From: a virus
Lineage: Duplodnaviria; Caudoviricetes
Length of the DNA stretch: 63,903 bases
IMG/VR virus record: IMGVR_UViG_3300042898_001199
Location: 1 to 63,903 of that record
Strand: one strand, 5' to 3'
The position numbers and the translations under genes are program-made. The notes under the pieces are model-generated. The model worked only from the letters and a program-made list of their open reading frames with translations, was not told the origin of the DNA and did no database searches. Shown one piece after another: positions 2,161 through 18,127 of this stretch (the stretch's first letter is position 1; the number at the start of each line of letters is the position of its first letter).

Positions 2161-3029
2161 CAACAAATTTACGTCTCAGTTAACAAAACGCGGTAAAAGT
2201 TTTACTCAGAAGTAAATAAATAACCGCAAAAAGGGGATCAGGGGATAACCAAATCCAAAACAAAAAGGGGGCAAGAAGTCAAATGTGAGGGGTTTCCAAT
2301 CCCATGGCCCACCCCCCTCAAGTAAATAAAATCGGGATTTGCGACCCCACCCCGGCCTAGCAGGAACCATGACCCAAGCCAAGACCTTGGTTATCAGCAT
2401 GTTGCATCCACGTTTCGCCCCTAACTTTAAGGATTGCCCAGCCAACACATTATATATGTAGCGATACATGATGTCGGCATCATACATCACACGTCAGCTC
2501 TAGCACACAGCATAGCAACCCAACAACAACAAGCCATGCAATACTATACAGCTCACACACAACGCATGCCTATTGCCCTGCAATACTACGGCATATCATC
2601 AGTCAACAAAGCCTTGACCTCAACCCCTTAGTGTATCATGTACACTTACTACGTTTTCCACATAAGCCTGTTCATAACTATAGTGTGCCGTCAACACAAT
2701 AAACCATGGCATACCTGAGTTGCGCCAAACCCTTGACCTTAGTGTACATTACACACCAACCTTAGTGTACTTCATACACATTAGCCTATTCGTTACGGCA
2801 GAAACCCTCCGCATGTGACCATTTATAAGTCCTGCCAAACCTACATTCCTTTCCTATAGACCTTCTGCATCCCTTGTCTTTGCTATGTTCTTAAAATAGT
2901 ACGAATTATTATCATTTTTTTATCATTGGTTATCAGTTAGTTACAATTTATTTTCATTTATTTTCATATGCCACACAATATAATCTAGCAATCTGCATTA
3001 TCCCTTCAAGAGCAACGGCTCGGAGCAAA

Positions 3030-3230
3030 GATTCCCTTACTGATTACTACCCGTACTGATGAGATATCAGTTGTACACAGGAGTGTTATTCGAATAGAGG
3101 TAGTAGAGGGTAGAGAGTTTAGCTAGATAGAAGTAGTACTCAACTATACTTAGCCGTCAAAGGTAACTAACTGAGCAAGGGTGTTACACGGAGAGAGTAC
3201 TAGTCACACAGGTCGGACTTAAAAGACCAA
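3030..3230 (+). ncRNA. structured leader RNA upstream of the early operon
   Basis: nested stems TACTACC/GGTAGTA, ACTGAT/ATCAGT, TAGTACTC/GAGTACTA, CCGT..GTAAC/GTTAC-ACGG, GGTC/GACC; no ORF. Confidence 0.5.
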
Positions 3231-3231
3231 A

Positions 3232-3243
3232 GTTCTTTGACAT
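3232..3243 (+). promoter_or_regulatory. boxA-like antitermination site
   Basis: GTTCTTTGACAT resembles rRNA-operon boxA (GYTCTTTRAMA) and follows a GGTC/GACC hairpin. Confidence 0.55.
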
Positions 3244-3256
3244 ATCGGTAACACAC

Positions 3257-3318
3257 TGAAACGCTTGGAGAGGTCTGCTCGTGAGAGAGGCTTTGGGGTT
3301 CGACTCCCCACGTTTCGC
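3257..3318 (+). ncRNA. tRNA-like element without an anticodon arm
   Basis: 7-bp acceptor stem TGAAACG/CGTTTCG, T-arm TGGGG-TTCGACT-CCCCA, stemless D-loop CTTGGAG, and a GTGA-tetraloop helix in place of the anticodon arm. Confidence 0.75.
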
Positions 3319-3339
3319 TAACCAATTAATACACACACT

Positions 3340-3699
3340 ATGTACAAAATTGCATTTCATCTAGCACGAGGAGTTCACTTCATGCATTGGCAAATTAAGG
3401 GAGATAACGGAGAGGTAATCTACGTTAACCCTAACGAGAGTGACATTGTTATTCACGGATGTAAACTGAAGAACCAAAGGAGTACCTCACTCAAGATTCA
3501 CCAAGGCGGTGACAAGTTCAGATGTGCTTGGGTTCAATTCGATTCATTCGAGATTGTGCCACTATCTAACTACACGTCAAAGACTCAAGTTCGTTTCAAT
3601 CCGAGGGTTAAACCTACGTGGGTTGTAGGAGGTGTTGACGAGCAGGACAACAGAGAGTTCAACGTCCTTTACACTAACCGTTCACAGCTATTTGCATAA
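3340..3699 (+). CDS. early hypothetical protein
   Basis: 119-aa ORF with TAACCAA..ACACAC leader. Confidence 0.8.
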   Translation: MYKIAFHLARGVHFMHWQIKGDNGEVIYVNPNESDIVIHGCKLKNQRSTSLKIHQGGDKFRCAWVQFDSFEIVPLSNYTSKTQVRFNPRVKPTWVVGGVDEQDNREFNVLYTNRSQLFA

Positions 3700-3752
3700 G
3701 GTTTACTGAAGAGAGTTTAATACTCGAAACGGGGGTTATCCCCGTCTAAACC
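3700..3752 (+). ncRNA. type I hammerhead ribozyme (HH1)
   Basis: stem I GGTTTA/TAAACC, core CTGAAGA, stem II GAGT/ACTC, GAAA, stem III CGGGG/CCCCG, GTC triplet; predicted cut after C3746. Confidence 0.93.
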
Positions 3753-3771
3753 AATTTAAATCAATAATGCC

Positions 3772-3879
3772 ATGGAGACTAAAATCTTAAGAATCGAGGG
3801 GAACTTTGAAGTAATCGGGTTCTTCATCAACGGAGTATTAGTACGCACTACGAAGAGACGTGTATACTCTTGGAACTAA
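3772..3879 (+). CDS. 35-aa early protein (not in ORF track)
   Basis: METKILRIEGNFEVIGFFINGVLVRTTKRRVYSWN, downstream of the HH1 leader. Confidence 0.6.
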   Translation: METKILRIEGNFEVIGFFINGVLVRTTKRRVYSWN

Positions 3880-3906
3880 AACATTAATCATCTAATACCA
3901 ATTGCC

Positions 3907-4062
3907 ATGAACTCAAATCAGAAAACCATCAACAGCCTGTCTTTACTAGGTATCGCAGGAGGACTTCTTCTAGTGAGCTTGAGCATGACCTTCTTTGGAG
4001 GAGTGTTCATCACACTATTCACCTTATCATTGACAGCTAACCTGCTGTTGCCACAACACTAA
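3907..4062 (+). CDS. 51-aa early membrane protein (not in ORF track)
   Basis: two hydrophobic segments; leader ATACCAATTGCC-ATG. Confidence 0.6.
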   Translation: MNSNQKTINSLSLLGIAGGLLLVSLSMTFFGGVFITLFTLSLTANLLLPQH

Positions 4063-4082
4063 CCAATAAATACATAGAAAAC

Positions 4083-4412
4083 ATGAACGTATTACAATTG
4101 AACATTGGGCTGAATAACAACCCTTACAGCCCTGAGGAAGTTACTCGACTACTTACTACATACTTTGACGGATTAGTGGGAGTCAGAGAACACATGGGCG
4201 AGTGGGAGGGTGAGCCTGAGCCAACGATGGTTGTTAAGATTGTTGTTGACATGGAGTATACCGATGCTTACATCATGGTCTCAACAATGGCTAGCAACTT
4301 CACTCAAGACTGCATCGCAATGAAGTTCAACGATAAAGGAACTTTGGTTTATAATGTCGATTACGAGGGGAACCCATTCGACTTCAGCGATGAATATTTC
4401 ATCGAGTTCTAG
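4083..4412 (+). CDS. acidic early hypothetical protein
   Basis: 109-aa ORF; its TAG stop overlaps the first base of HH2. Confidence 0.8.
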   Translation: MNVLQLNIGLNNNPYSPEEVTRLLTTYFDGLVGVREHMGEWEGEPEPTMVVKIVVDMEYTDAYIMVSTMASNFTQDCIAMKFNDKGTLVYNVDYEGNPFDFSDEYFIEF

Positions 4413-4471
4413 GTTAACTGATGAGTCCTGAGTGGACGAAACGTGAGGCTCTCCAGCCTCATGTCTTAACC
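4412..4471 (+). ncRNA. type I hammerhead ribozyme (HH2)
   Basis: stem I GGTTAA/TTAACC, core CTGATGA, stem II GTCC/GGAC, GAAA, stem III CGTGAGGCT/AGCCTCATG, GTC triplet; predicted cut after C4465. Confidence 0.95.
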
Positions 4472-4485
4472 AAATAATTATTGCC

Positions 4486-4722
4486 ATGAATACTGAAGAA
4501 CAACTGAAAAAAAGGCTTGCCCTTATTGAGGATGACTTGCGAGTAATTCGAGAGTTCATCTACATCCAAGGTTTGACATCGGAGTTCGAGAAATCGACCC
4601 CGTATTCTGACGAGGCTTGGGTTCACCTGAACAACATCGACATTGCATGTGACCTAAGCGATGACGAGTGCCTGACTTGGAAAACATTTACAAACTTTAA
4701 CGAACAAACTAGACCGCTATGA
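4486..4722 (+). CDS. early hypothetical protein
   Basis: ORF immediately after HH2. Confidence 0.75.
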   Translation: MNTEEQLKKRLALIEDDLRVIREFIYIQGLTSEFEKSTPYSDEAWVHLNNIDIACDLSDDECLTWKTFTNFNEQTRPL

Positions 4723-5000
4723 GCAGAATCACCAAACTTCAGAAGCAGATTGCCGATGCACACATCAGAGCAAATCGAGAGGGTTCATTCACTAACTTGA
4801 AAGTAAATTCAAAAGAGGAATTTCACCAAGCCTTGGAGAGAGGTGAGACCTACGAAATAGTCTACAAAGAAATTGTATACAGATACGCCTCGATGACTAG
4901 CCTGATAATGGCTAATGTACTAGACCACGAGAGCAAGGCTTACACACAGGCTGTGTACAAAGGATTTAAAAACGTGCTTAATTCAATCGATGTAAAATGA
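4719..5000 (+). CDS. early hypothetical protein
   Basis: ATGA-coupled ORF. Confidence 0.75.
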   Translation: MSRITKLQKQIADAHIRANREGSFTNLKVNSKEEFHQALERGETYEIVYKEIVYRYASMTSLIMANVLDHESKAYTQAVYKGFKNVLNSIDVK

Positions 5001-5209
5001 AACCGAGTTACCACAACATGAAGCTACCCATGATTAAGGGAGCAATAACCTTCCCCTGTAGGGCTAAGGTAGAACTACGCATTCAGGTATACGGAAGAGT
5101 GGTAGTGAGTGAGGTGAACTTCAGCAATGAGGTTCACGTTATGAACTACACGAAACTGATGTACCGCAAGATGATGGACGTACTGACAATTGAAAAACTT
5201 AATAACTAA
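4997..5209 (+). CDS. early hypothetical protein
   Basis: ATGA-coupled ORF. Confidence 0.7.
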   Translation: MKPSYHNMKLPMIKGAITFPCRAKVELRIQVYGRVVVSEVNFSNEVHVMNYTKLMYRKMMDVLTIEKLNN

Positions 5210-5222
5210 TAAATACACACAC

Positions 5223-5429
5223 ATGAACATTGACACACTAATCGCATACGAGTCAGGGGAACTGAACGATGCCGATACTATAACCTTCTTTGCAGACCTT
5301 GTTAAAACCAAGATGGCTTGGAGTCTTCAGGGAAGTTACGGACGCATGGCTTCAGCCATGATTGATGCAGGGTTTATCTCTCCTGAGGGAGAGGTGACCG
5401 AGTTAGCAGAAGAAACCTTTAATAATTAA
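5223..5429 (+). CDS. early hypothetical protein
   Basis: start moved to MNIDTL after the ACACACAC leader; AWSLQGSYGR motif. Confidence 0.75.
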   Translation: MNIDTLIAYESGELNDADTITFFADLVKTKMAWSLQGSYGRMASAMIDAGFISPEGEVTELAEETFNN

Positions 5430-5433
5430 TACA

Positions 5434-5661
5434 ATGGAAAAACTATTCAAACAATTAGTGGGGAAAAAAATCGCCAGTCTCCGTTACATGACCAAGGGCG
5501 AGTGCGAGGCACTAGGGTTCCACAAGAGTTCGATAATCATTCGACTAGACGATGGCACATGGCTCATCCCAATTGCAGATGATGAGATGAATGACGGAGG
5601 TTCTCTGTACACGATAGGCAAAGGGGAGGAAAATATAATACCAACAACGTACACCACATGA
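5434..5661 (+). CDS. early hypothetical protein
   Basis: ORF in operon, DDEMNDGG motif. Confidence 0.75.
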   Translation: MEKLFKQLVGKKIASLRYMTKGECEALGFHKSSIIIRLDDGTWLIPIADDEMNDGGSLYTIGKGEENIIPTTYTT

Positions 5662-5822
5662 AGACTAAAAGATATATCCTGACATTGCTCAATGAAACGG
5701 GAGGAGTAATTGACGCGAGAATATTTTACGCACTCAGTAGAGTGGATGCACTCGAGCAGGCAAAACTGTTCATGAATTTTCAAAATCTTAAACTTAAATT
5801 TAAACTAAACCTTTTTAAATAA
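5658..5822 (+). CDS. 54-aa early protein (not in ORF track)
   Basis: ATGA-coupled, fills the gap between neighbours. Confidence 0.55.
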   Translation: MKTKRYILTLLNETGGVIDARIFYALSRVDALEQAKLFMNFQNLKLKFKLNLFK

Positions 5823-5830
5823 TAAACACC

Positions 5831-6316
5831 ATGAAATACACAACACAAGAAGGCTTCAATTGGGAGATTGTAAGCAAGGAAAGAGCAATTGCATTACTTC
5901 AGGCAGGTGCAGAGGTCTACAAGGTATACGATGACGAGAGTGAATCTCTTATTGACTTGGAAGATGAATTATGGGACGTTTCCGGACTCATGTTCTACGC
6001 CATCGATGGAAACACTGCAAGGATTTTTCAGAAACAAGCACCGAGGAAATGGGCGAGGGTTGACACTGCGACTGGCAAAGGAATGAACGAGGGTTTCTGC
6101 GTAGGTGAGGGTGACGCTTACTTCGAGGAAGAGGCTGACCTGATTAAGTACCTGAGAGGGCTGAATGAAGAGGGGAACAAGGAGTTGTCTGATGACTTCA
6201 TTCTTGCCGAGGCTTACGCTTTGGAAGAGTATTACTACACAGAGTGGGACGTTGAAGACAGCGACTATTACTACGAGGAACAAGCGGACGGAACACTAAT
6301 AGAAATTAACCTTTAA
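5831..6316 (+). CDS. highly acidic early protein
   Basis: 161 aa, D/E- and aromatic-rich C-terminus. Confidence 0.8.
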   Translation: MKYTTQEGFNWEIVSKERAIALLQAGAEVYKVYDDESESLIDLEDELWDVSGLMFYAIDGNTARIFQKQAPRKWARVDTATGKGMNEGFCVGEGDAYFEEEADLIKYLRGLNEEGNKELSDDFILAEAYALEEYYYTEWDVEDSDYYYEEQADGTLIEINL

Positions 6317-6328
6317 AAAATAAACACC

Positions 6329-6577
6329 ATGAAAAAAGTAAATTCAGTAACAGCATCACGCTTCTTAGCTTGGTACTTCTCAGATTCAGATATGGTAGAA
6401 TCATTCGGCCAGCGTGCAGTAAAAATGCTACAGGATGAGGGGTTCGTGAATATCTCAGCAAGACAATTATTTGAAGATTGCGGATACATTCCTTCATTCA
6501 TCTGCGAACATGGGGACGTGGATTGGGATGATGCACGAGAGTACTCTCCTGAAGAAATAGAATTTATCAATGACTAA
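6329..6577 (+). CDS. early hypothetical protein
   Basis: ORF with AAATAAACACC-ATG leader, also present before 5831. Confidence 0.75.
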   Translation: MKKVNSVTASRFLAWYFSDSDMVESFGQRAVKMLQDEGFVNISARQLFEDCGYIPSFICEHGDVDWDDAREYSPEEIEFIND

Positions 6578-6595
6578 CCAATAAAACCAAACGCC

Positions 6596-6973
6596 ATGAA
6601 CACACAACAAGTAACACAGGAAGACATCTTCAAAGTAATCAACACACTTGCTATTCAGGTGCGAAATGACCTGATGGAGAGTGAGGTATTCGAAGATTCA
6701 GATACACTGGAAACGATAAAGACCATTGTCTTTCTAGCTCAACTACACAACTCTGATTGGAGCTACCCTTTTACCGAGGGAGATACTTACTATACCATCG
6801 AACATGATACAATTGTCGAGTCGGTGTGGGACGAGGAGAGTAAGGAGTTGTACCTGAGCGACAGCAATAAACTTTACAACCACTCAGACCAGCAATACTT
6901 CAGCAGTCTAGATGAAGCAGTACACTACTTCAAGAGTAAAGCTAAAACAACCCCTAAAATCTCATTGCTATGA
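6596..6973 (+). CDS. early hypothetical protein
   Basis: ORF with TAACCAA leader. Confidence 0.75.
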   Translation: MNTQQVTQEDIFKVINTLAIQVRNDLMESEVFEDSDTLETIKTIVFLAQLHNSDWSYPFTEGDTYYTIEHDTIVESVWDEESKELYLSDSNKLYNHSDQQYFSSLDEAVHYFKSKAKTTPKISLL

Positions 6974-7197
6974 ACGTAATAACCATTAAGAAACGCCCGA
7001 TGCAACAACACCTCGGAGGAAGTCAGGACATTGTCTTCTACACACGGAACAAGGCTCTCTCTCGCTTCTTCGAAATGACAGACGAGTTAGGCTACGAGGT
7101 GGAGGTAACCTACAAGAACAATCTTGTCACATACGAGGCAGGAGGGCGAGGCCATGATCATAGAATTGAACTTGAACTAACAAACGTACTAGTATGA
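6970..7197 (+). CDS. early hypothetical protein
   Basis: ATGA-coupled ORF. Confidence 0.7.
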   Translation: MNVITIKKRPMQQHLGGSQDIVFYTRNKALSRFFEMTDELGYEVEVTYKNNLVTYEAGGRGHDHRIELELTNVLV

Positions 7198-7373
7198 AAG
7201 AAACAACATTCTTCTTCAACGAGGTTGGAGAGACCTGCACCATCGAGGTGCATCTGAACCGCAAGCTAGACTACAGGAAGACCTTTAGCAAGGTGACATC
7301 ATTCTCTGAGGCAGTTGCCAAGTATGAGCAGTGGAAGGCAGACCAAGAAACATTTAAATCCGTAATGATATGA
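7194..7373 (+). CDS. 59-aa early protein (not in ORF track)
   Basis: ATGA overlaps at both ends. Confidence 0.65.
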   Translation: MKETTFFFNEVGETCTIEVHLNRKLDYRKTFSKVTSFSEAVAKYEQWKADQETFKSVMI

Positions 7374-7660
7374 ACGAGCAAGAATTTCTGGACTTCATGT
7401 ACAAAGAGTACATCGAGGTAATCGCAACGACTCAGCAGGTCTGTCCCATAACTTATGAACTATTGGACTACAAAACTTGTGTAGTGGTGGATGCTTATGA
7501 TGGTGATACTCTGAAGGATACGCAGGCACTCTCGCCTAACGCTATTGCAGAGGATAGCTTGAGGATAATCATAACCGACTTTGCTATTATGAGAATACGC
7601 CCAGTCTTCCTATCTTTGAACCCACTATTAAAGGACACAATCAAATCACTAAACAATTAA
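7370..7660 (+). CDS. early hypothetical protein
   Basis: ATGA-coupled ORF. Confidence 0.7.
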   Translation: MNEQEFLDFMYKEYIEVIATTQQVCPITYELLDYKTCVVVDAYDGDTLKDTQALSPNAIAEDSLRIIITDFAIMRIRPVFLSLNPLLKDTIKSLNN

Positions 7661-7664
7661 TCTA

Positions 7665-7823
7665 ATGGAACGAGACGAGAAAATCATCATCGGATGCGTA
7701 GCTGTGCTTATTGCCACGATATACTTCAGCATCCTGTTTAACATGAAGGCCATGGCCATAGTAAGCATGCTTGTTCTAGTCGCTGCCTTCCTAGTCGCAC
7801 AACTTATTGAATCAATTAAATAA
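7665..7823 (+). CDS. 52-aa membrane protein (not in ORF track)
   Basis: MERDEKIIIGCVAVLIATIYF..., two hydrophobic segments. Confidence 0.6.
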   Translation: MERDEKIIIGCVAVLIATIYFSILFNMKAMAIVSMLVLVAAFLVAQLIESIK

Positions 7824-7834
7824 ACCAAACACCC

Positions 7835-8239
7835 ATGAAAAAACAAATAGAAACATTAATCAGTCTAGCTCGCATGGTAGCAGACCTTCACTACAATTAC
7901 AATATCAAAGATGAGGTTGTAAACCACACGCACAACATCCGAGTAATTCAGGCTAACGAGAGAGATAATGAATTTATCGTGGTGGTATTCACTCGTAATA
8001 GACTTGATTTTAGTGTTCGTTTCTCTAACTACAGCGGAGTTAACTTGGAGTTCCCCTTCTCAGCAAATATTGAAGAGACCCTCGACCCTCTTATTGAAGA
8101 GGTGAGTGAGTCTCTGAACGAATGGCAGGCAAATAGTCAAGAGGATATAGTTCAAATGAAATTGGATGCCGTAGAGAAGAGAAGACAGACTTTGATAAAA
8201 TTAACAAACGAACTAAACGAATTGGAGGGCAAACTATGA
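7835..8239 (+). CDS. early hypothetical protein
   Basis: 134-aa ORF with TAAACCAAACACCC-ATG leader. Confidence 0.75.
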   Translation: MKKQIETLISLARMVADLHYNYNIKDEVVNHTHNIRVIQANERDNEFIVVVFTRNRLDFSVRFSNYSGVNLEFPFSANIEETLDPLIEEVSESLNEWQANSQEDIVQMKLDAVEKRRQTLIKLTNELNELEGKL

Positions 8240-8514
8240 AACACTTTGTAAAAGACATTGCAGACCAAGTAATGCTAGATGTATGTCCATCAGGAAGATT
8301 ACTAGCCTTCAACGAAGTCCATGTTGTGGATTGTGGGAACAAGAATATCAAGGTATACCTTCAAGGTGTAATTAACATGGATGAGGAGAACTTGATAATC
8401 CACACCGCAACTTACACGGATGATATGGAAGCAGATGAAGACTTGCCTGAGGACTGGAAAGAGTTCGATGACAGCGAGATTATTTATCTAGAAAAGCATT
8501 TACAATACTCGTAG
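8236..8514 (+). CDS. acidic early hypothetical protein
   Basis: last ORF before the terminator. Confidence 0.75.
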   Translation: MKHFVKDIADQVMLDVCPSGRLLAFNEVHVVDCGNKNIKVYLQGVINMDEENLIIHTATYTDDMEADEDLPEDWKEFDDSEIIYLEKHLQYS

Positions 8515-8534
8515 TTCATGGGTAAATTGGTTAG

Positions 8535-8570
8535 AAGAGAGGGGGTAGACTTTGTCTATTCCCTTTTTTT
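8535..8570 (+). terminator. intrinsic terminator ending the early operon
   Basis: GGGGGTAGAC-TTT-GTCTATTCCC followed by T7. Confidence 0.85.
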
Positions 8571-8761
8571 GTTTTCACTATCTTTGTAATCAATAGGTTA
8601 AACACTATCTCACTAATAAAAATACACGCTCACATGAATAAGCAAATATCACCCCGTAAAAACAACATGACTTACGCTGTAGTATACATGATGGTTGCTT
8701 TTAGAAAGCTCAGCAAAATCAACATCCAGAACGCATTTATCACAAAAAAAATTGGCCGTTT

Positions 8762-9085
8762 ATGATAGTAAGAGAAACCATTCAGGAGGGGACTTTAAAA
8801 CAAAATAAGAACCCATCAATAGAGATACCTAAGCATGTTTTAGACCACCTTATTTCATCTTGTAGGTCACACGCTGACGTATTAAACATGCACTATATAT
8901 GTAACAAGCAGAAACTCCCGTTAAGATTCATGAACGACCTTATCATCAGGAAGAAGCCTCTAAAGAATAGAGAGAAGATAGATTTGATGCTCAAGGGCTT
9001 GATTGAATACTGCGAAGAGGTAGACGAATTACGGCTCAAAATACAAAAGATAATAGATGAAATCGGTACACAAGACAAGGGCTAA
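8762..9085 (+). CDS. hypothetical protein
   Basis: 107-aa ORF; TATCTTTG promoter-like element at 8579-8586. Confidence 0.7.
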   Translation: MIVRETIQEGTLKQNKNPSIEIPKHVLDHLISSCRSHADVLNMHYICNKQKLPLRFMNDLIIRKKPLKNREKIDLMLKGLIEYCEEVDELRLKIQKIIDEIGTQDKG

Positions 9086-9296
9086 GTGGCTAATTTATTT
9101 TGCCAATAGGAATATCAACCCGAAGAAAGCTTTGATGGTATTCCGTCCTGAATATGACAAGCCTGATATAAGTAGGATGATGTCACTTTTCTTCGGTACG
9201 CCTAAATTTACCGAGGCTGACATTGAAGACTGGAGAGCAATTAAGAAATGTATAGAACGAACTGAAGATAGAAACAATGGCAAACTTTTCTCGTAG
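9057..9296 (+). CDS. hypothetical protein
   Basis: overlapping ORF in operon. Confidence 0.65.
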   Translation: MKSVHKTRAKWLIYFANRNINPKKALMVFRPEYDKPDISRMMSLFFGTPKFTEADIEDWRAIKKCIERTEDRNNGKLFS

Positions 9297-9564
9297 TAAT
9301 AAGTACAGAAGTCGGGCTGAGAAGTACATGGAAATTGACAGCCTACATAAAAGGGTTGTTGCCATACTCACAAAGACTGGCCTTAGAAATGATCCCAAGG
9401 CTTACCTGACATTTGATCTGGCTCTCTATCCCATGGATATCGATCAGAGGAGGAAGATTCTAAAGAAGATATTCAGCCCTGATGGGAGAGAGATTAAGGA
9501 GGAGCATAAACAACAAATAGAATTGTTAGAAACTTTTTTCGATAGGAATTGTAAAAGTTTGTAA
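9277..9564 (+). CDS. hypothetical protein
   Basis: ORF in operon. Confidence 0.7.
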   Translation: MANFSRSNKYRSRAEKYMEIDSLHKRVVAILTKTGLRNDPKAYLTFDLALYPMDIDQRRKILKKIFSPDGREIKEEHKQQIELLETFFDRNCKSL

Positions 9565-9580
9565 TTCTTTTGTATATTTG
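9549..9580 (+). promoter_or_regulatory. Bacteroidota primary-sigma promoter
   Basis: TTG(9549)-N21-TATATTTG(9573-9580). Confidence 0.75.
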
Positions 9581-9606
9581 CATAAACCAATAAATAATAA
9601 ATAACT

Positions 9607-9786
9607 ATGGAAACACACGACTTATTCTTCTGTCGCTACTGCGATGAAGACTTACTAGACGAAAGAATCAAAACCGTGGCCGAAGACCAGAACATCGAAG
9701 AGGATGAGGCCAAGGACATCATTGACACCGAGGGGGAGATTGGATTATGCAGAGCATGTCAAAGCGAAGAGGATTCAGACTGGTAA
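9607..9786 (+). CDS. 59-aa acidic Zn-finger-like protein (not in ORF track)
   Basis: CRYC...CRAC pairs; first gene after the promoter. Confidence 0.7.
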   Translation: METHDLFFCRYCDEDLLDERIKTVAEDQNIEEDEAKDIIDTEGEIGLCRACQSEEDSDW

Positions 9787-9811
9787 ATATTAACAAGTAA
9801 ATTACACACAA

Positions 9812-10681
9812 ATGTCAAACATAACAATTTCACCAAAGACGGTAATGCCGTTCATCGAACCTCGCAGAGAGGAAATGATTAAGCTGATGGGAGGAGAAGA
9901 AGTTCTCATGAGAGAGATGTCTTTCGCCATCCAAGCTGCTAACAACAACCAAGTGTTGGCAAATTCTAACCCACAATCAATTGCAATGGCTGTGTACAAC
10001 TGTGCATTGACCAAGTTGTCTCTGAACCCTGTAATGAACCTAGCTTATCTAGTTCCTTTCAAGGGCAACGCGAAGCTAATGCCAGGATATCAGGGGATGA
10101 TTAAGCTTATCTCTGACACAGGGATTATCAAGTCGGTATCTTCGGCGGTAGTTTATCGAGGGGACGATTTTGACTTTGTTCAGGGGACTAGCCCGGAGAT
10201 TATACACAAGCCTAAGGGTGAGACCTTCAAGAACAGCGATGTCATAGCCGTGTACGCAATCTTCGTACTACACAATGACGAGAAACTGTTCGAGATTATG
10301 TGGAAGCCTCAGATTGATGCCATCAAGAACCGATCGGAGACAGGGCGTAAAGATGAAGGGCCGTGGTCTACAGACTACGGGGAGATGGCACGCAAGACGG
10401 TTGTCAAGAGAGGTTGGAAGTCTATACCGAAATCATCTTTCGCACTAGACAAGATTGAGAAGGTTAACACGGCTATCAGCATCGACAACGAGGAGTACAA
10501 GACAGTCGAGTATGTTAAGATGAGCGAGGAGCAAATCGAGAGACTGCTTGAGAAGACAACCAACGTGGTAGAACTTGAGGCTGCACTATCTGACGAGTCG
10601 GTGATGATCGATCCAGAGCAGAAGAAAGAAATCATAGAGAAAGCTAAAAACAAAAATAAAAAAGGAGGTGACGATGAGTAA
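9812..10681 (+). CDS. recT: RecT-family ssDNA annealing recombinase
   Basis: LSLNP..LAYLVPF..GYQGMI and PWSTDYGEMARKTVVKR motifs. Confidence 0.9.
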   Translation: MSNITISPKTVMPFIEPRREEMIKLMGGEEVLMREMSFAIQAANNNQVLANSNPQSIAMAVYNCALTKLSLNPVMNLAYLVPFKGNAKLMPGYQGMIKLISDTGIIKSVSSAVVYRGDDFDFVQGTSPEIIHKPKGETFKNSDVIAVYAIFVLHNDEKLFEIMWKPQIDAIKNRSETGRKDEGPWSTDYGEMARKTVVKRGWKSIPKSSFALDKIEKVNTAISIDNEEYKTVEYVKMSEEQIERLLEKTTNVVELEAALSDESVMIDPEQKKEIIEKAKNKNKKGGDDE

Positions 10682-11357
10682 CTTGTTAAATGAAATCTTA
10701 AAGGAACAGGCCATGGCCGCAGATCAAAGGTCACAGGCATGGTTCAACGCTCGTGTGGGTAAGTTTACCTCATCAGAGATATACAAGCTTCTTACTAACC
10801 CTCAATCAAAAGAGGCCCGTGAGAAGGGAGAGATGTCTGAGACGGCTAAGACATACGTCATGTCTAAGGTTGCCGAGGAGATGGCCGGGATGGAGCAGAC
10901 TACTAACTCGGCAGCTACAGACTGGGGCTTGGACCACGAGGCAGAGGCTTGCAACCTATACGCAGAGATGATGGAGTCTCATGTTGACTCTACCGGATTC
11001 ATACCGTACGGAGACCACGCAGGGGGTTCTCCTGACGGTATCTGTTCACGCTTCGGAGTGATTGAGATTAAATGTCCTTACAACTTTGAGAATCACATTC
11101 AGAATCTACTCATAAAGGACGAGGCTGAGTTGCTTAAGGAGAGAAAGGCTTACTGGTGGCAACTTCAAATGAACATGCTGGTCGCAGGCAAGGAGGAGGG
11201 GATGTTTATATCTTACGATCCTAGAATGGATGGCAAGAGTAAATTACAAATAATTCCCGTACATTTGCAAAGCAACACAAAAGAAGTCATAGACACTGTC
11301 CTTGATAAAGCAGTAGCTTACAAGCAAATGTTAATTGAGATGATAAAAAACAGATAA
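10668..11357 (+). CDS. YqaJ/lambda-exonuclease-like recombination exonuclease
   Basis: QRSQAWFNARVGKFTSS, GGSPDG, EIKCP, YWWQLQ motifs; adjacent to recT. Confidence 0.9.
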   Translation: MTMSNLLNEILKEQAMAADQRSQAWFNARVGKFTSSEIYKLLTNPQSKEAREKGEMSETAKTYVMSKVAEEMAGMEQTTNSAATDWGLDHEAEACNLYAEMMESHVDSTGFIPYGDHAGGSPDGICSRFGVIEIKCPYNFENHIQNLLIKDEAELLKERKAYWWQLQMNMLVAGKEEGMFISYDPRMDGKSKLQIIPVHLQSNTKEVIDTVLDKAVAYKQMLIEMIKNR

Positions 11358-11359
11358 GT

Positions 11360-11686
11360 ATGTTAACAGACAAAAAGAAACACCAAATCATTGCCTCTGT
11401 GCTACACGCAAACTGTTTTGTAATACTATCTGACGAGATAGGGCCACCATACTGGGAAAAGGAAATCAAGATGATTGCCAAGAGGTATGTGGAAGCTATC
11501 GAGAAGAAGTACAAATTGCTAGCATCTGTTCTGTTCCAAATTGAAGGGGGGGATATGTATCAAAAGGCTCAGTCCGACTGTGAAGAACTTGTTGCCCTAA
11601 TTAGTAAGCTAGACTGGCACAAACACCACAAAGTAATTGAATACATTAAAACCCTTGAAGAAGATGAACAAGATTCAGAAAACTAA
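11360..11686 (+). CDS. hypothetical protein
   Basis: 108-aa ORF in operon. Confidence 0.7.
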   Translation: MLTDKKKHQIIASVLHANCFVILSDEIGPPYWEKEIKMIAKRYVEAIEKKYKLLASVLFQIEGGDMYQKAQSDCEELVALISKLDWHKHHKVIEYIKTLEEDEQDSEN

Positions 11687-12044
11687 TCTATACTTTATTG
11701 CTTTCATTGTCGTTCTTATTTTATCTGGAGTAATCCTGACTAAAATATACACTGGCGAGAAAGTAATGGTTAGATCTTACAACGATTCAATCTCAGCAAA
11801 CAATCTTAAAATAAGAGAGGCGCAAAAGATTGTAGATTCATTAAAGAAAGAGTTAGCTAAACAAGATGTAGAGTACGTCTACATAAAACAAAAAGAAAGT
11901 GAAACAATTAAAACCTACAAAAATGAAAAATCTATTATTGATCACGCTCCTATTAGCGAGCAGCTTGAGCTTTTCACAAAAAACCTCAAAAGGCTTGACA
12001 GCCTCAACAAGCAAGGATACTTTGATTTCAATCAACAAGAATGA
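11664..12044 (+). CDS. membrane-anchored coiled-coil protein (i-spanin-like)
   Basis: N-terminal TM LYFIAFIVVLILSGVIL followed by coiled coil. Confidence 0.55.
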   Translation: MNKIQKTNLYFIAFIVVLILSGVILTKIYTGEKVMVRSYNDSISANNLKIREAQKIVDSLKKELAKQDVEYVYIKQKESETIKTYKNEKSIIDHAPISEQLELFTKNLKRLDSLNKQGYFDFNQQE

Positions 12045-12372
12045 TGTTGACTTGTTAAACAAAGTAATTCTGTCAGAGAACTTCTACAGGTCTTTGTACG
12101 ATTTGAATGACGAAAAGATTAATTTGTTTGAGAGTAAAATAAAAACTCTTCAAGGTGTTGTGCTGTACGATTCAATTGTTATGAAAAACTTACAAGACAA
12201 TGTATACCTTTTAGAGTACGACTTATCTGTAGCTAAAGAAAGTGCTGACCGTTCTTACAGCGAAAGATCAAAAGCTGTTATAAAAGCATACGAGTGGAAA
12301 CAACGTGCAATTTTAGGTATTCCAATCTCTTTAGCCGGAGGATTTTTAATCGCAACTCTAATCCAACACTAA
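11923..12372 (+). CDS. secreted/membrane coiled-coil protein (spanin partner-like)
   Basis: signal peptide MKNLLLITLLLASSLSFSQ, C-terminal hydrophobic segment; overlaps the previous gene by ~120 nt. Confidence 0.55.
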   Translation: MKNLLLITLLLASSLSFSQKTSKGLTASTSKDTLISINKNDVDLLNKVILSENFYRSLYDLNDEKINLFESKIKTLQGVVLYDSIVMKNLQDNVYLLEYDLSVAKESADRSYSERSKAVIKAYEWKQRAILGIPISLAGGFLIATLIQH

Positions 12373-12373
12373 T

Positions 12374-12649
12374 ATGAAACCACTATTTGATCGTATAAAG
12401 TTTAAGCCACACATACGCAAGGCTGTAACGTCCGACATTATTATAACAGAGACTAATGAGAAAGTGTTTAAGGACGAGGGATACGTCACAGACATTGGAG
12501 AGGAGGTTGAGTTTGTAAAAGTTGGAGACAGGATTAAATTCCTAGAGAAAAATGTAACATGGGTTTCTGAAAACGATGTGACCTTTGGTCTTATCTCTGA
12601 GGATCATGTGTTAGCTATAATTGATGATGAGAACGTTCAGGAAGGTTAA
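12374..12649 (+). CDS. groES: GroES-like co-chaperonin
   Basis: MKPLFDRI..., VKVGDRI, LISEDHVLAII fit the Cpn10 pattern. Confidence 0.8.
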   Translation: MKPLFDRIKFKPHIRKAVTSDIIITETNEKVFKDEGYVTDIGEEVEFVKVGDRIKFLEKNVTWVSENDVTFGLISEDHVLAIIDDENVQEG

Positions 12650-17117: not shown

Positions 17118-17366
17118 TTATTTTTCTTCTTCGGATGGTGTGTCATCCTTCTTCTTGTATCGCGTAAAGATACTCTCAATAACCGTAAGTCCCAAACCTC
17201 CTCCTGCTATGACAAGAAGTCCCTCAAACATATAGTCAGGGCATCTGTATGAAGTGAATGTGGCAATGTACGCAAGCGATATGCAAACGAGTAAAGATAA
17301 TAAAGCACTGACTCTTTTTGTACTCGCATCTCCTTCAGAACTTAGTAGTGATTTTATCCATTTCAC
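17118..17366 (-). CDS. holin-like membrane protein
   Basis: two TM segments, STKR motif, charged C-terminus, next to the putative endolysin. Confidence 0.6.
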   Translation of the reverse strand: MKWIKSLLSSEGDASTKRVSALLSLLVCISLAYIATFTSYRCPDYMFEGLLVIAGGGLGLTVIESIFTRYKKKDDTPSEEEK

Positions 17367-18095: not shown

Positions 18096-18127
18096 CAAAT
18101 TTACGTCATTTTGTTATTTGCTTTCAA
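18096..18127 (-). promoter_or_regulatory. promoter for the lysis cassette, probably leaderless
   Basis: TTG-N21-TAAATTTG ending 5 nt before ATG 18090. Confidence 0.6.

What the first reader, a model, noticed from the sequence alone, without database searches (positions are those of the whole stretch)
3257..4486. Early transcript segmented by two hammerheads and a tRNA mimic, all releasing the same TAACC leader
Seen: HH1 starts at the base after a stop codon and HH2 at the last base of one. The 3' strand of each stem I (TAAACC, TTAACC) is the leader motif found before many early genes (3319, 4060, 6575, 7821, 9583). The tRNA-like element ends at ~3318, directly before TAACCAA. Established: hammerheads cut after the NUH triplet and leave a 5'-OH; tRNA-processing nucleases cut beside acceptor stems; T7 segments its early mRNA at RNase III sites. 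Inference: this phage uses self-cleaving and tRNA-mimic RNAs to cut its early polycistron into units with near-identical 5' ends 20-25 nt before the ATG. Stem I would mask the leader until cleavage.
Basis: partly seen in the sequence, partly recalled or inferred. Interest (0 to 1): 0.93.

Follow-up and report, generated by a model that had tools for sequence, protein, structure and literature searches.

The report
Ribozyme and tRNA-like punctuation of phage genes
Two genuine hammerhead ribozymes and a stripped-down tRNA look-alike sit between small genes of a freshwater phage, each placed to cut the long RNA about 20 bases before the next gene, a layout shared by hundreds of uncultured phages.

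Summary
3700-3752 and 4412-4471 (+) are full-consensus type I hammerheads: 0 of 300 shuffled windows gave anything as good. A covariance model built only from foreign phage hammerheads scores them 61.6 and 57.9 bits, next window hit 10.5. 3257-3318 is a conserved tRNA-like element with a 7-bp acceptor stem, T arm and GNRA-capped hairpin, and no anticodon loop. Relatives keep it through compensatory changes.

All three end directly before U(U/A)AACCAA, 20-25 nt upstream of an ATG. The same motif precedes 9 of 29 early genes, against 0.31 expected.

The hammerheads belong to a large phage class with a 6-bp stem I, flanking A residues, and the order stop codon, ribozyme, ~22-nt leader without a visible Shine-Dalgarno sequence, ATG. 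Rfam misses this class at its thresholds. Mini tRNA-likes recur in the same loci.

Processing of phage transcripts by clustered hammerheads was proposed in 2011 (PMC3088659). The tRNA-like partner and the shared leader are the new parts.

Limits: no cleavage or RNA-end data. TAACC is only one of many stem I variants in the class. Five leaders have no cleavage element.

The parts
3000..3256 (+). Untranslated, purine-rich stretch upstream of the tRNA-like element, partly conserved in relatives. Probably a 5' leader or small RNA that RNase P would release.
   Evidence: No ORF of at least 60 aa lies here. It aligns with L124, L123 and L122. No Rfam family matches.
3257..3318 (+). Reduced tRNA-like element. 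Acceptor stem 3257-3263 pairs with 3311-3317. Linker CUUGGA. A 9-10 bp hairpin capped by GUGA at 3270-3294. T arm 3294-3310 with loop UUCGACU. Discriminator C3318. Predicted RNase P cut at 3256|3257 and RNase Z cut at 3318|3319.
   Evidence: ARAGORN and Rfam tRNA models do not call it.
3319..3339 (+). Leader 1, UAACCAAUUAAUACACACACU, 21 nt to the ATG at 3340.
3340..3699 (+). ORF of 119 aa. A homologue in L050 is also preceded by a tRNA-like element.
   Evidence: A weak Pfam Phage_L5_gp82 hit lies below the cut-off.
3700..3752 (+). Hammerhead 1, type I. Stem I GGUUUA/UAAACC, loop II UUAAU. Cleavage after C3746.
   Evidence: Model R1 gives 61.6 bits, E 1.7e-14.
3747..3771 (+). Leader 2, UAAACCAAUUUAAAUC..., 25 nt to the ATG at 3772.
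3772..3879 (+). ORF of 35 aa, 100% identical to the L122 ORF that directly follows the tRNA-like element there.
3907..4062 (+). ORF of 51 aa. Its TAA stop is the TAA of the next leader motif.
4060..4082 (+). Leader with no ribozyme, UAACCAAUAAAUAC..., 23 nt to the ATG at 4083.
   Evidence: No R1 hit and no hammerhead core upstream.
4083..4412 (+). ORF of 109 aa. Its L122 homologue is preceded by a hammerhead; in L123 and L124 a hammerhead follows the homologue.
4412..4471 (+). Hammerhead 2, type I. Stem I GGUUAA/UUAACC, loop II UGAGU, 10-bp stem III. Cleavage after C4465.
   Evidence: Model R1 gives 57.9 bits.
4466..4485 (+). Leader 3, UUAACCAAAUAAUUAUUGCC, 20 nt to the ATG at 4486.
4486..4722 (+). 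ORF of 78 aa, first of a tightly overlapping gene run.
5806..5830 (+). Leader motif TAAACCUU with no ribozyme, before the ATG at 5831.
6307..6328 (+). Leader motif (U)UAACCUU with no ribozyme, before the ATG at 6329.
6575..6595 (+). Leader motif TAACCAA with no ribozyme, overlapping the stop of ORF 6329-6577, before the ATG at 6596.
7821..7834 (+). Leader motif TAAACCAA with no ribozyme, 14 nt before the ATG at 7835.
9573..9606 (+). TATATTTG box (the form recalled for Bacteroidota -7 promoter elements), then CA, then the leader TAAACCAAUAAAU... before the ATG at 9607. Here a transcription start would fall in or near the motif.
   Evidence: The same arrangement occurs in L124.

Best explanation
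The rightward small-gene operon of this ~64-kb freshwater phage is punctuated by RNA processing elements. The phage's nearest cultured relatives infect Flavobacteriia. Two type I hammerhead ribozymes each fill the gap between a stop codon and the next gene's leader. They should cut themselves after C3746 and C4465, leaving a 2',3'-cyclic phosphate on the upstream RNA and a 5'-OH on the downstream RNA. A reduced tRNA-like element (3257-3318) keeps only what RNase P and RNase Z recognise: the stacked acceptor and T arms, and no CCA after the discriminator. It should be cut out by those host enzymes. Each cut would give an mRNA starting with U(U/A)AACCAA, 20-25 nt before its ATG, on an A/U-rich leader with no visible Shine-Dalgarno sequence. 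Shown here: the motifs, their conservation and covariation, their fixed placement, and that the two element types occupy the same slot in relatives. Inferred: cleavage in vivo, the enzymes involved, and the benefit. The likely benefit is to uncouple neighbouring genes, give each a short unstructured 5' end for Shine-Dalgarno-independent initiation, and leave a stable hairpin at the 3' end of the upstream RNA. The TAACC leader is a separate lineage-specific signal that also works without cleavage. Stem I of this lineage's hammerheads is built on it.
For: Hammerheads. Full consensus and three stems. The hammerhead fold is the MFE fold. The strict descriptor hit 0 of 300 shuffles. Model R1, built from 25 foreign sequences, gives 61.6 and 57.9 bits, against 10.5 for the next window hit. 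In 150 family members, 98.5% of cells pair, 13 of 16 pairs show double changes, and the covariation score is 0.573 against 0.120 when shuffled, with 0 of 500 shuffles as high.

Class architecture, over 317 unique hammerheads from 203 loci. Stem I is exactly 6 bp in 295. The base 5' of stem I is A in 309, and the base 3' of it is A in 293. An upstream ORF's stop lies within 3 nt of the ribozyme start in 99 of 317 (99 of the 130 that have such an ORF end within 30 nt). The distance from cleavage site to ATG is 14-32 nt in 177 of 317, peaking at 21-23.

tRNA-like element. Relatives L122, L123 and L124 keep it with compensatory changes in the hairpin. L050 has a different acceptor stem and T stem but the same T loop, and sits before the homologue of ORF 3340. 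On the model-fitted alignment A6, 98% of cells pair and all 7 acceptor pairs covary, against 41-53% paired when slid. A descriptor finds 49 such elements on the hammerhead strand, 16 on the opposite strand and about 10.7 in shuffles.

Same slot. L122 places the tRNA-like element directly before the ORF 3772 homologue. Hammerheads come and go between orthologous genes.

Leader. 9 of 29 early genes carry it, against 0.31 expected. In TAACC-type loci, TAACCA without a ribozyme precedes 112 of 2208 ORF starts, against 26 of 1734 in other loci. Composition-matched hexamers give 18-63.

Host. All 79 named matches to the terminase, of 80 records, are phages of Flavobacteriia. Of about 16 credible class hammerheads found in the genome collection, about 8 lie in records named as Bacteroidota.

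Precedent. Perreault et al. 2011 proposed the same processing role and showed in vitro cleavage for three prophage clusters (PMC3088659, passages read).
Against: There is no experimental or RNA-end evidence. Only assembled contigs of RNA runs were available, and none gave usable ends. Rfam does not call the hammerheads: RAGATH-1-hammerhead scores 22.4 bits against a 56.3 threshold, and Hammerhead_3 scores 18 against 48.5. The fold energies of HH1 (z -1.65, 12 of 200 shuffles as good) and of the tRNA-like element (z -0.76, 40 of 200) are not exceptional on their own. Short 6-bp stem I hammerheads could be slow unless the conserved loop II and flanking A residues form a tertiary contact, which was not tested. 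Five leaders have no cleavage element, so cleavage is not needed for a TAACC leader. Phages with other stem I variants show no matching ribozyme-less leaders, for example TAGACA 1 of 13 and TTGACA 4 of 30. A shared leader is therefore not a rule of the class. Alignment A6 was fitted to the model and includes weak hits with E up to 0.8. No clear promoter was found upstream of 3257. 'Early' rests only on gene size and position.
Confidence: 0.72

Rival explanations
1. The shared TAACC is a by-product. The motif is a lineage-specific translation or expression signal of the early genes. Hammerheads and tRNA-likes simply landed next to it, or spread with it as gene cassettes. Stem I was fitted to whatever sequence was there. 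Cleavage happens, but the identity of the released 5' end has no function, and there is no regulatory masking.
For: Stem I varies freely across the class, always as G-NNNN-A paired with U-NNNN-C (GGTTAA is only 12 of 117). Ribozyme-less TAACC leaders exist. Other variants lack ribozyme-less leaders. The homologue of ORF 4083 has a hammerhead upstream in L122 but only a bare leader in the window.
Against: Three unrelated ways of making a 5' end all place it within a few bases of the same motif: hammerhead, tRNA-like, and a promoter-like TATATTTG box 2 nt upstream at 9573 and in L124. Hammerheads within one genome often keep one stem I variant while stems II and III diverge (33 of 64 loci with two or more).
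Confidence: 0.35
2. The elements are mainly recombination or mobility boundaries. Repeated ~50-nt ribozymes and the shared leader give short homologies that shuffle small early-gene cassettes between phages. RNA cleavage is secondary.
For: The cassette made of leader, ORF 3340 and HH1 is present in the window and absent in L122, with breakpoints inside TAACC/TAAACC. An RNA-run contig carries the same 3323-to-3754 joint. Gene content between relatives is mosaic, with ribozymes at the junctions.
Against: The catalytic core is invariant and stems covary, which recombination sites do not need. Spacing to stop and start codons is tight. Published prophage clusters cleave in vitro (PMC3088659).
Confidence: 0.15
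3. Cleaved gene-length RNAs are rejoined or circularised. Each fragment's 5'-OH UUAACC end can re-pair with the GGUUAA strand of the ribozyme remnant at its own 3' end. That places the two ends for ligation by the ribozyme or by host RtcB.
For: Stem I is uniform within many genomes. Hammerhead products have the end chemistry RtcB needs (established knowledge). The control genome Bacteroides thetaiotaomicron has RtcB.
Against: In the window, HH1's 3' strand (UAAACC) and HH2's 5' strand (GGUUAA) match at only 5 of 6 positions. The phage encodes no RtcB or RNA ligase family member. Perreault et al. looked for spliced or circular products and found none (PMC3088659).
Confidence: 0.05
4. The tRNA-like element is a decayed tRNA gene or an attachment site carrying a host tRNA 3' half, with no role in mRNA processing.
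For: It has a perfect T arm and acceptor 3' strand. An 11-nt copy of that strand lies at 2409-2419.
Against: The 5' acceptor strand is kept and covaries with the 3' strand across relatives. The hairpin covaries. The 3' half has no exact match in 185,579 species genomes. No integrase family hit occurs in the 96%-complete genome. Similar elements recur before genes in other phages.
Confidence: 0.03

Closest known systems
Clustered hammerhead ribozymes flanking genes in prophages and phages (Perreault et al. 2011, PMC3088659; passages read)
   Same: Several co-oriented hammerheads lie between genes of one transcription unit. They are proposed to cut long phage RNAs into gene-length mRNAs. In haloviruses HF1 and HF2 a hammerhead lies 13 nt before a start codon, close to a mapped 5' end.
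   Different: This is a sharply defined sub-class. It has a 6-bp open stem I flanked by A on both sides, loop II of form U-N-A-N-U, and the order stop codon, ribozyme, ~22-nt leader, ATG. It is paired with tRNA-like elements and with a leader motif that also occurs without a ribozyme. The paper's supplementary alignments could not be opened, so some members may already be listed there.
Rfam RAGATH-1-hammerhead (RF03152), Hammerhead_3 (RF00008) and the other Rfam hammerhead models
   Same: Same catalytic core and three-stem junction. RF03152 is the best-scoring Rfam family for both elements.
   Different: Scores are far below the thresholds: 22.4 against 56.3 bits, and 18 against 48.5. Thirteen further loci of this class gave no hammerhead hit at gathering. 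The upstream hairpin of RAGATH-1 aligns to HH1 only across a 33-nt insertion.
tRNA punctuation of mitochondrial polycistronic transcripts, and MALAT1/mascRNA 3'-end formation (recalled; the weak Rfam mascRNA-menRNA hit is)
   Same: A tRNA or tRNA-like fold between RNA units recruits RNase P and RNase Z, so their cuts define the ends of the neighbouring RNAs.
   Different: Here it occurs in a DNA phage of bacteria, with reduced elements that are not functional tRNAs, and side by side with self-cleaving ribozymes doing the same job. Processing is not shown.
RNase III processing of T7 early mRNA; RNase P cleavage of phage RNAs such as P1/P7 C4 RNA, phi80 M3 RNA and T4 gene 32 mRNA (the latter group listed in PMC11143913, passages read)
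   Same: A phage polycistronic RNA is cut at structured intergenic sites by RNA-processing activities.
   Different: There are no long RNase III-type hairpins here. The cutters would be the RNA itself and the tRNA-processing enzymes.
Synthetic ribozyme-flanked and tRNA-flanked multiplex guide RNA arrays (recalled from memory, not checked)
   Same: Engineers use hammerheads and tRNAs interchangeably to release units from one transcript.
   Different: Those are artificial constructs. This would be a natural transcript using both.

Membership tests
Hammerhead ribozyme, type I | Core C3 U4 G5 A6 N7 G8 A9 ... G12 A13 A14, an A15.1-U16.1 pair, and H17 at the cleavage site | tested here: met
   Both elements carry CUGA(A/U)GA, GAA, an A-U closing pair of stem III and C17.
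Hammerhead ribozyme, type I | Three helices around the core, with stem I open and stems II and III closed by loops | tested here: met
   Stems are 6/4/7 and 6/4/10 bp. This is the MFE fold for both.
Hammerhead ribozyme, type I | Helices supported by covariation in relatives | tested here: met
   On alignment A3 (142 distinct sequences), 13 of 16 pairs show double changes and 98.5% of cells pair, against 25-45% when slid. Stem I variation there is limited by the fetch pattern. The sample fetched without constraining stem I shows it covarying.
Hammerhead ribozyme, type I | Score above the gathering threshold of an Rfam hammerhead model | tested here: not met
   No hits at gathering. Best scores are 22.4 bits against 56.3 (RF03152) and 18 against 48.5 (RF00008). 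This is a limit of the models, not a missing catalytic feature.
Hammerhead ribozyme, type I | Tertiary contact between stem I and loop II that gives fast cleavage | tested here: inconclusive
   Loop II is conserved as U-N-A-N-U. Stem I has a fixed 6-bp length with A on both flanks. These hint at a contact, but no structure or kinetics is available.
Hammerhead ribozyme, type I | Self-cleavage activity | not testable with these tools
   Needs in vitro transcription or RNA-end mapping.
Canonical tRNA | Cloverleaf with D arm and a 7-nt anticodon loop, recognised by tRNA finders | tested here: not met
   ARAGORN finds 0 genes. No Rfam tRNA hit up to E=10 in 3000-4800. The middle arm ends in a GUGA tetraloop, and a 6-nt linker replaces the D arm.
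tRNA-like processing element (RNase P/Z substrate) | 7-bp acceptor stem stacked on a 5-bp T stem, with T loop UUCRANU | tested here: met
   3257-3263 pairs with 3311-3317, 3294-3298 pairs with 3306-3310, and the loop is UUCGACU. The pairs covary across 22 elements.
tRNA-like processing element (RNase P/Z substrate) | No CCA after the discriminator, as recalled to be required for RNase Z | tested here: met
   C3318 is followed by UAA.
tRNA-like processing element (RNase P/Z substrate) | Cleavage by RNase P and RNase Z | not testable with these tools
   Needs enzyme assays or end mapping.
Phage attachment site inside a tRNA gene | Integrase in the phage, and identity to a host tRNA 3' end | tested here: not met
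   No PF00589 hit. No exact match of the 21-nt 3' half in the genome collection. Serine recombinases were not searched.
T7-type RNase III processing site | Long imperfect hairpin between genes | tested here: not met
   The intergenic elements fold as a hammerhead and a tRNA-like element. The five ribozyme-less leaders have no notable structure upstream (z -2.3 to +0.4).

The most novel reading that the evidence does not exclude
Phages of Bacteroidota-type hosts, whose ribosomes largely ignore Shine-Dalgarno sequences, use a general system of interchangeable RNA punctuation. Self-cleaving hammerheads, miniature tRNA-likes cut by RNase P/Z, and promoters are all positioned to create an mRNA 5' end about 22 nt before the start codon. 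Initiation on these leaders depends on a free 5' end, and in this lineage on the 5'-proximal UAACC. Cleavage would then act as a translational on-switch for each gene, not just as transcript trimming.
Probability: 0.22. Interest if true: 0.85.

Novelty: new variant of a known kind. Interest (0 to 1): 0.62.

Why it matters
The biological role of bacterial and phage hammerheads is still described as open (2019 review PMC6765202, passages read). This locus and its relatives give an unusually clean case. Hundreds of ribozymes sit in one fixed position relative to stop and start codons. They are swapped in evolution with tRNA-like elements, which can only be processing signals. That argues strongly that the function is defining mRNA 5' ends. 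The work also exposes a large hammerhead sub-class and a set of mini tRNA-like elements that Rfam thresholds miss. It points to two cultured phages where the idea can be tested directly: a Flavobacterium phage and an Agrobacterium phage. If the 5' end matters for translation without a Shine-Dalgarno sequence, that would bear on how Bacteroidota ribosomes choose start sites. It would also supply compact natural parts for multi-gene expression.

Tried and rejected
Close relatives by protein. The search for related loci with ORF 3340 and ORF 4083 found none in viral contigs. blastn of 3000-5000 against cultured phages found nothing. Relatives came instead from DNA pattern scans.

RNA evidence. 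The stretch is held by lake and freshwater runs. Only Logan contigs were available, not raw reads. RNA runs X19 and X20 gave 3 and 11 short contigs, mostly from relatives at 90-95% identity. X21 gave none. No table of molecule ends was produced. One X19 contig ends at 3252, 4 nt before the predicted RNase P site. One X20 contig runs across the tRNA-like/leader junction and then skips from 3323 to 3754. I treat these as no evidence for or against cleavage. The joint is used only as a sign that a cassette-less variant exists.

Attachment-site and true-tRNA readings of 3257-3318 were rejected. The idea that the ribozyme-less leaders are decayed hammerheads or follow another structured element was rejected. 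A third hammerhead around the CUGAUGAG at 3054-3061 was rejected: the descriptor and R1 find nothing there.

The genome contigs pattern scan gave 46 stretches. By my own arithmetic on collection size, about that many are expected by chance. Only about 16 contain a complete class hammerhead. The script reported 18, but the hits in L165 and L169 are long and spurious. Several lie on short MAG contigs whose taxonomic labels I do not trust.

Other points. MAFFT misaligned L050 with the other tRNA-likes, so I used model-based alignment. The third fold (L038) used wrong coordinates and is void. blastn of HH2 against cultured phages mostly gave noise, apart from Agrobacterium phage OLIVR1. Maribacter phage Panino and record MW202828.1 gave no R1 hit. 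No phage RtcB or RNA ligase family hit was found. Literature searches found no paper describing tRNA-like punctuation together with hammerheads in phages, or the TAACC leader.
Full report
What the window is. The 63,903-base window is a complete IMG/VR virus record, estimated 96% complete. It encodes a portal, large terminase, primase/helicase, exonuclease, RecT and a YqaJ-type recombinase, plus a 4137-aa ORF with no family match. The terminase matches 80 phage records, at only 24-27% identity for the listed top hits. The 79 named ones are Flavobacterium (68), Cellulophaga (8), Tenacibaculum (2) and Maribacter (1) phages. DNA of the region occurs in lake and freshwater runs. From about 3340 to 12400 the + strand carries some 29 small, tightly packed ORFs. 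Calling them 'early' is an inference from their layout.

The observation. 3700-3752 and 4412-4471 carry every invariant hammerhead position (CUGANGA, GAA, the A15.1-U16.1 pair, C17) and three stems with stem I open, which is type I. The hammerhead fold is the minimum-energy fold of both. My strict descriptor (stems at least 6/4/6) hit 0 of 300 Markov-shuffled windows. A loose one averaged 0.18 hits per window. HH1 starts at the base after a TAA stop. HH2's first G is the last base of a TAG stop. Rfam reports nothing at gathering thresholds. With relaxed thresholds the best family is RAGATH-1-hammerhead, at 22.4 bits against a cut-off of 56.3.

3257-3318 has a 7-bp acceptor stem, a 6-nt linker containing GG, a 9-10 bp hairpin capped by GUGA, and a 5-bp T stem with loop UUCGACU. 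Discriminator C3318 is followed by UAACCAA. ARAGORN and Rfam do not call it a tRNA.

Predicted new 5' ends are U3319, U3747 and U4466, which lie 21, 25 and 20 nt before ATGs. The motif TA(2-3)CC[AT][AT] lies 12-30 nt upstream of 9 of 29 early ATGs, against 0.31 expected from its density elsewhere. It precedes 0 of 27 minus-strand ORFs of at least 100 aa, and 1 of 11 other plus-strand ORFs. The bare 7-mer is not enriched window-wide.

A large class of phage hammerheads. Of these, 109 hold a complete hammerhead by my descriptor. A covariance model (R1) built from 25 of them, none from the window, scores HH1 at 61.6 bits and HH2 at 57.9 bits. Nothing else in the window exceeds 10.5 bits. In 150 matches, 98.5% of cells pair, 13 of 16 pairs show double-sided changes, and the covariation score is 0.573 against 0.120 when shuffled.

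Across 317 unique hammerheads from 203 loci:
- Stem I is exactly 6 bp in 295.
- The base before stem I is A in 309, and the base after it is A in 293.
- The stop codon of an upstream ORF lies within 3 nt of the ribozyme in 99.
- The next ATG of an ORF of at least 40 codons lies 14-32 nt after the cut in 177, with a peak at 21-23.

Loop II has the form U-N-A-N-U. The window's two elements are textbook members. Thirteen further loci of the class also give no Rfam hammerhead hit at gathering.

Cultured phages carry the class unannotated. Flavobacterium phage vB_FspP_elemoA_7-9A has one at 17290-17347, under a likely spurious opposite-strand CDS. Agrobacterium phage OLIVR1 has one at 3960-4009.

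Is TAACC special? The first scan forced stem I, so I repeated it with a pattern defined by the core and loop II only. In that sample, stem I is GGTTAA in only 12 of 117. Other variants, all of the form G-NNNN-A paired with U-NNNN-C, are common. TAACC is therefore one variant, not a class constant.

Within genomes the variant is often uniform: 33 of 64 loci with two or more hammerheads (part of that sample is biased by the first pattern). In loci of the TAACC type, TAACCA without a ribozyme lies 10-35 nt before 112 of 2208 ORF starts. In other loci the figure is 26 of 1734. Composition-matched hexamers give 18-63. For other variants I saw no such ribozyme-less leaders. The leader is thus a real signal of this lineage, and stem I of its hammerheads is built on it. 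This is not a general rule of the class.

The tRNA-like element. Its 3' half has no exact match in 185,579 species genomes, and the phage has no integrase family hit. This argues against an attachment site. Three viral contigs share it. They differ in the hairpin by compensatory changes and keep C-UAACCA and an ATG about 20 nt downstream.

L050 comes from a 63,973-bp contig. Its element has a completely different acceptor stem and T stem but the same T loop. It sits before the homologue of ORF 3340.

Model R2 found further elements in other hammerhead-bearing loci, at 38-41 bits in L013, L014, L074 and L075, and weaker ones elsewhere. Most lie 15-40 nt before an ATG. On the model-fitted alignment of 22 elements, 98% of cells pair and all 7 acceptor pairs covary, against 41-53% paired when slid. 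That alignment leans towards the model and includes weak hits.

An independent descriptor finds 49 such elements on the hammerhead strand, 16 on the other strand and about 10.7 in shuffles. A few of the 49 are true tRNAs. ARAGORN sees none of the reduced ones.

Same slot. In L122 the tRNA-like element directly precedes the 35-aa ORF that in the window follows HH1, at 100% protein identity. The window therefore carries an extra cassette of leader, ORF 3340 and HH1. An RNA-run contig shows the same 3323-to-3754 joint. The ORF 4083 family is preceded by a hammerhead in L122 but by a bare leader in the window. HH2's position is occupied differently in L122, L123 and L124. At 9573 a TATATTTG box lies 2 nt before TAAACC, and L124 has the same arrangement. 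By the recalled Bacteroidota promoter consensus, a transcription start would fall in or next to the motif.

Mechanism. Most likely the long rightward RNA is cut by the two ribozymes and by host RNase P and RNase Z at the tRNA-like element. That would yield units starting with U(U/A)AACC 20-25 nt before the ATG. End chemistry follows from established knowledge: 5'-OH after a hammerhead, and 5'-P after RNase Z. The benefits are inferred. They include uncoupling of genes, a short unstructured 5' end for Shine-Dalgarno-independent initiation, and a stem III hairpin with a cyclic phosphate protecting the upstream RNA. Stem I necessarily sequesters the motif until cleavage, but whether that regulates anything is untested.

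Rivals are that the shared motif is incidental, that the elements mainly serve cassette shuffling, or that fragments are re-ligated. Perreault et al. did not detect circular or spliced products.

What is known. Perreault et al. 2011 described clustered hammerheads flanking prophage genes and showed in vitro cleavage for three clusters. They proposed processing into gene-length mRNAs (PMC3088659, passages). A 2019 review still calls the purpose open (PMC6765202, passages). RNase P is known to cut some phage RNAs (PMC11143913, passages). My four searches found nothing on tRNA-like punctuation alongside hammerheads in phages or on this leader. The library is incomplete and supplements were closed.

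Verdict. The hammerheads are new members of a known kind. The combination with mini tRNA-likes in one fixed slot is a new variant of a known kind.

Noticed in passing
window 18114-30527 (-): A 4137-aa ORF with no PHROG match at E<=1e-5. It is one of the largest genes in the phage, and its function is unknown.
   Followed up: partly
window 2409-2419 and 3308-3318 (+): An 11-nt direct repeat equal to the end of the T stem plus the 3' acceptor strand and discriminator of the tRNA-like element. L122 has a similar upstream copy. By my estimate about 0.17 such repeats are expected by chance in this 1.2-kb region, so its meaning is unclear.
   Followed up: no
window 2600-2790 (+): Repeated CCTTGACCT...TAGTGTAC motifs (three copies) lie in the C/A-rich non-coding region between the divergent gene blocks. 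They may be operators or phage-specific promoters.
   Followed up: no
window 3000-3256 (+): A purine-rich stretch upstream of the tRNA-like element with no long ORF is partly conserved in L124, L123 and L122. One RNA-run contig of a relative ends at 3252. It could be a small RNA released by RNase P.
   Followed up: partly
window 2160 (-), 9573 (+), 14131 (-), 52372 (+): Four exact TATATTTG boxes lie in intergenic positions. Three of them have an upstream TTTG at 15-23 nt. They fit the recalled Bacteroidota promoter consensus and support the host assignment.
   Followed up: partly
L274 (NC_055852.1 17290-17347, minus strand): Cultured Flavobacterium phage vB_FspP_elemoA_7-9A has an unannotated class hammerhead between gp67 and gp69. 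The annotated 35-aa opposite-strand CDS gp68 over it is probably spurious.
   Followed up: yes
L268 3498-3547 (MT234338.1 3960-4009): Agrobacterium phage OLIVR1 (Schitoviridae) has an unannotated hammerhead of the same build (43.7 bits) about 20 nt before gp13 in its early region. A tRNA-Thr gene sits between small genes a little further on.
   Followed up: partly
L079, L118, L199: Each of these phage loci carries three mini tRNA-like elements (~42 nt: acceptor stem, UGG linker, T arm). Those checked in L079 lie within ~40 nt upstream of an ATG, and two of three in L199 lie before ORF starts; L118 was scored mainly by the descriptor, with one ORF start within 60 nt. This looks like tRNA-like punctuation without any anticodon arm.
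   Followed up: partly
L140, L150, L164: Short contigs binned into 'Aliivibrio' and 'Gammaproteobacteria' MAGs carry 5-9 hammerheads within 3-6 kb, one per small gene, all with stem I (A)GAUUAA or GGUUAA. They are probably phage contigs that were mis-binned.
   Followed up: no
window 3319-3753 vs L122; RNA-run X20 contig: The cassette of leader, ORF 3340 and HH1 is present or absent between close relatives, with breakpoints inside the TAACC/TAAACC motif.
   Followed up: partly
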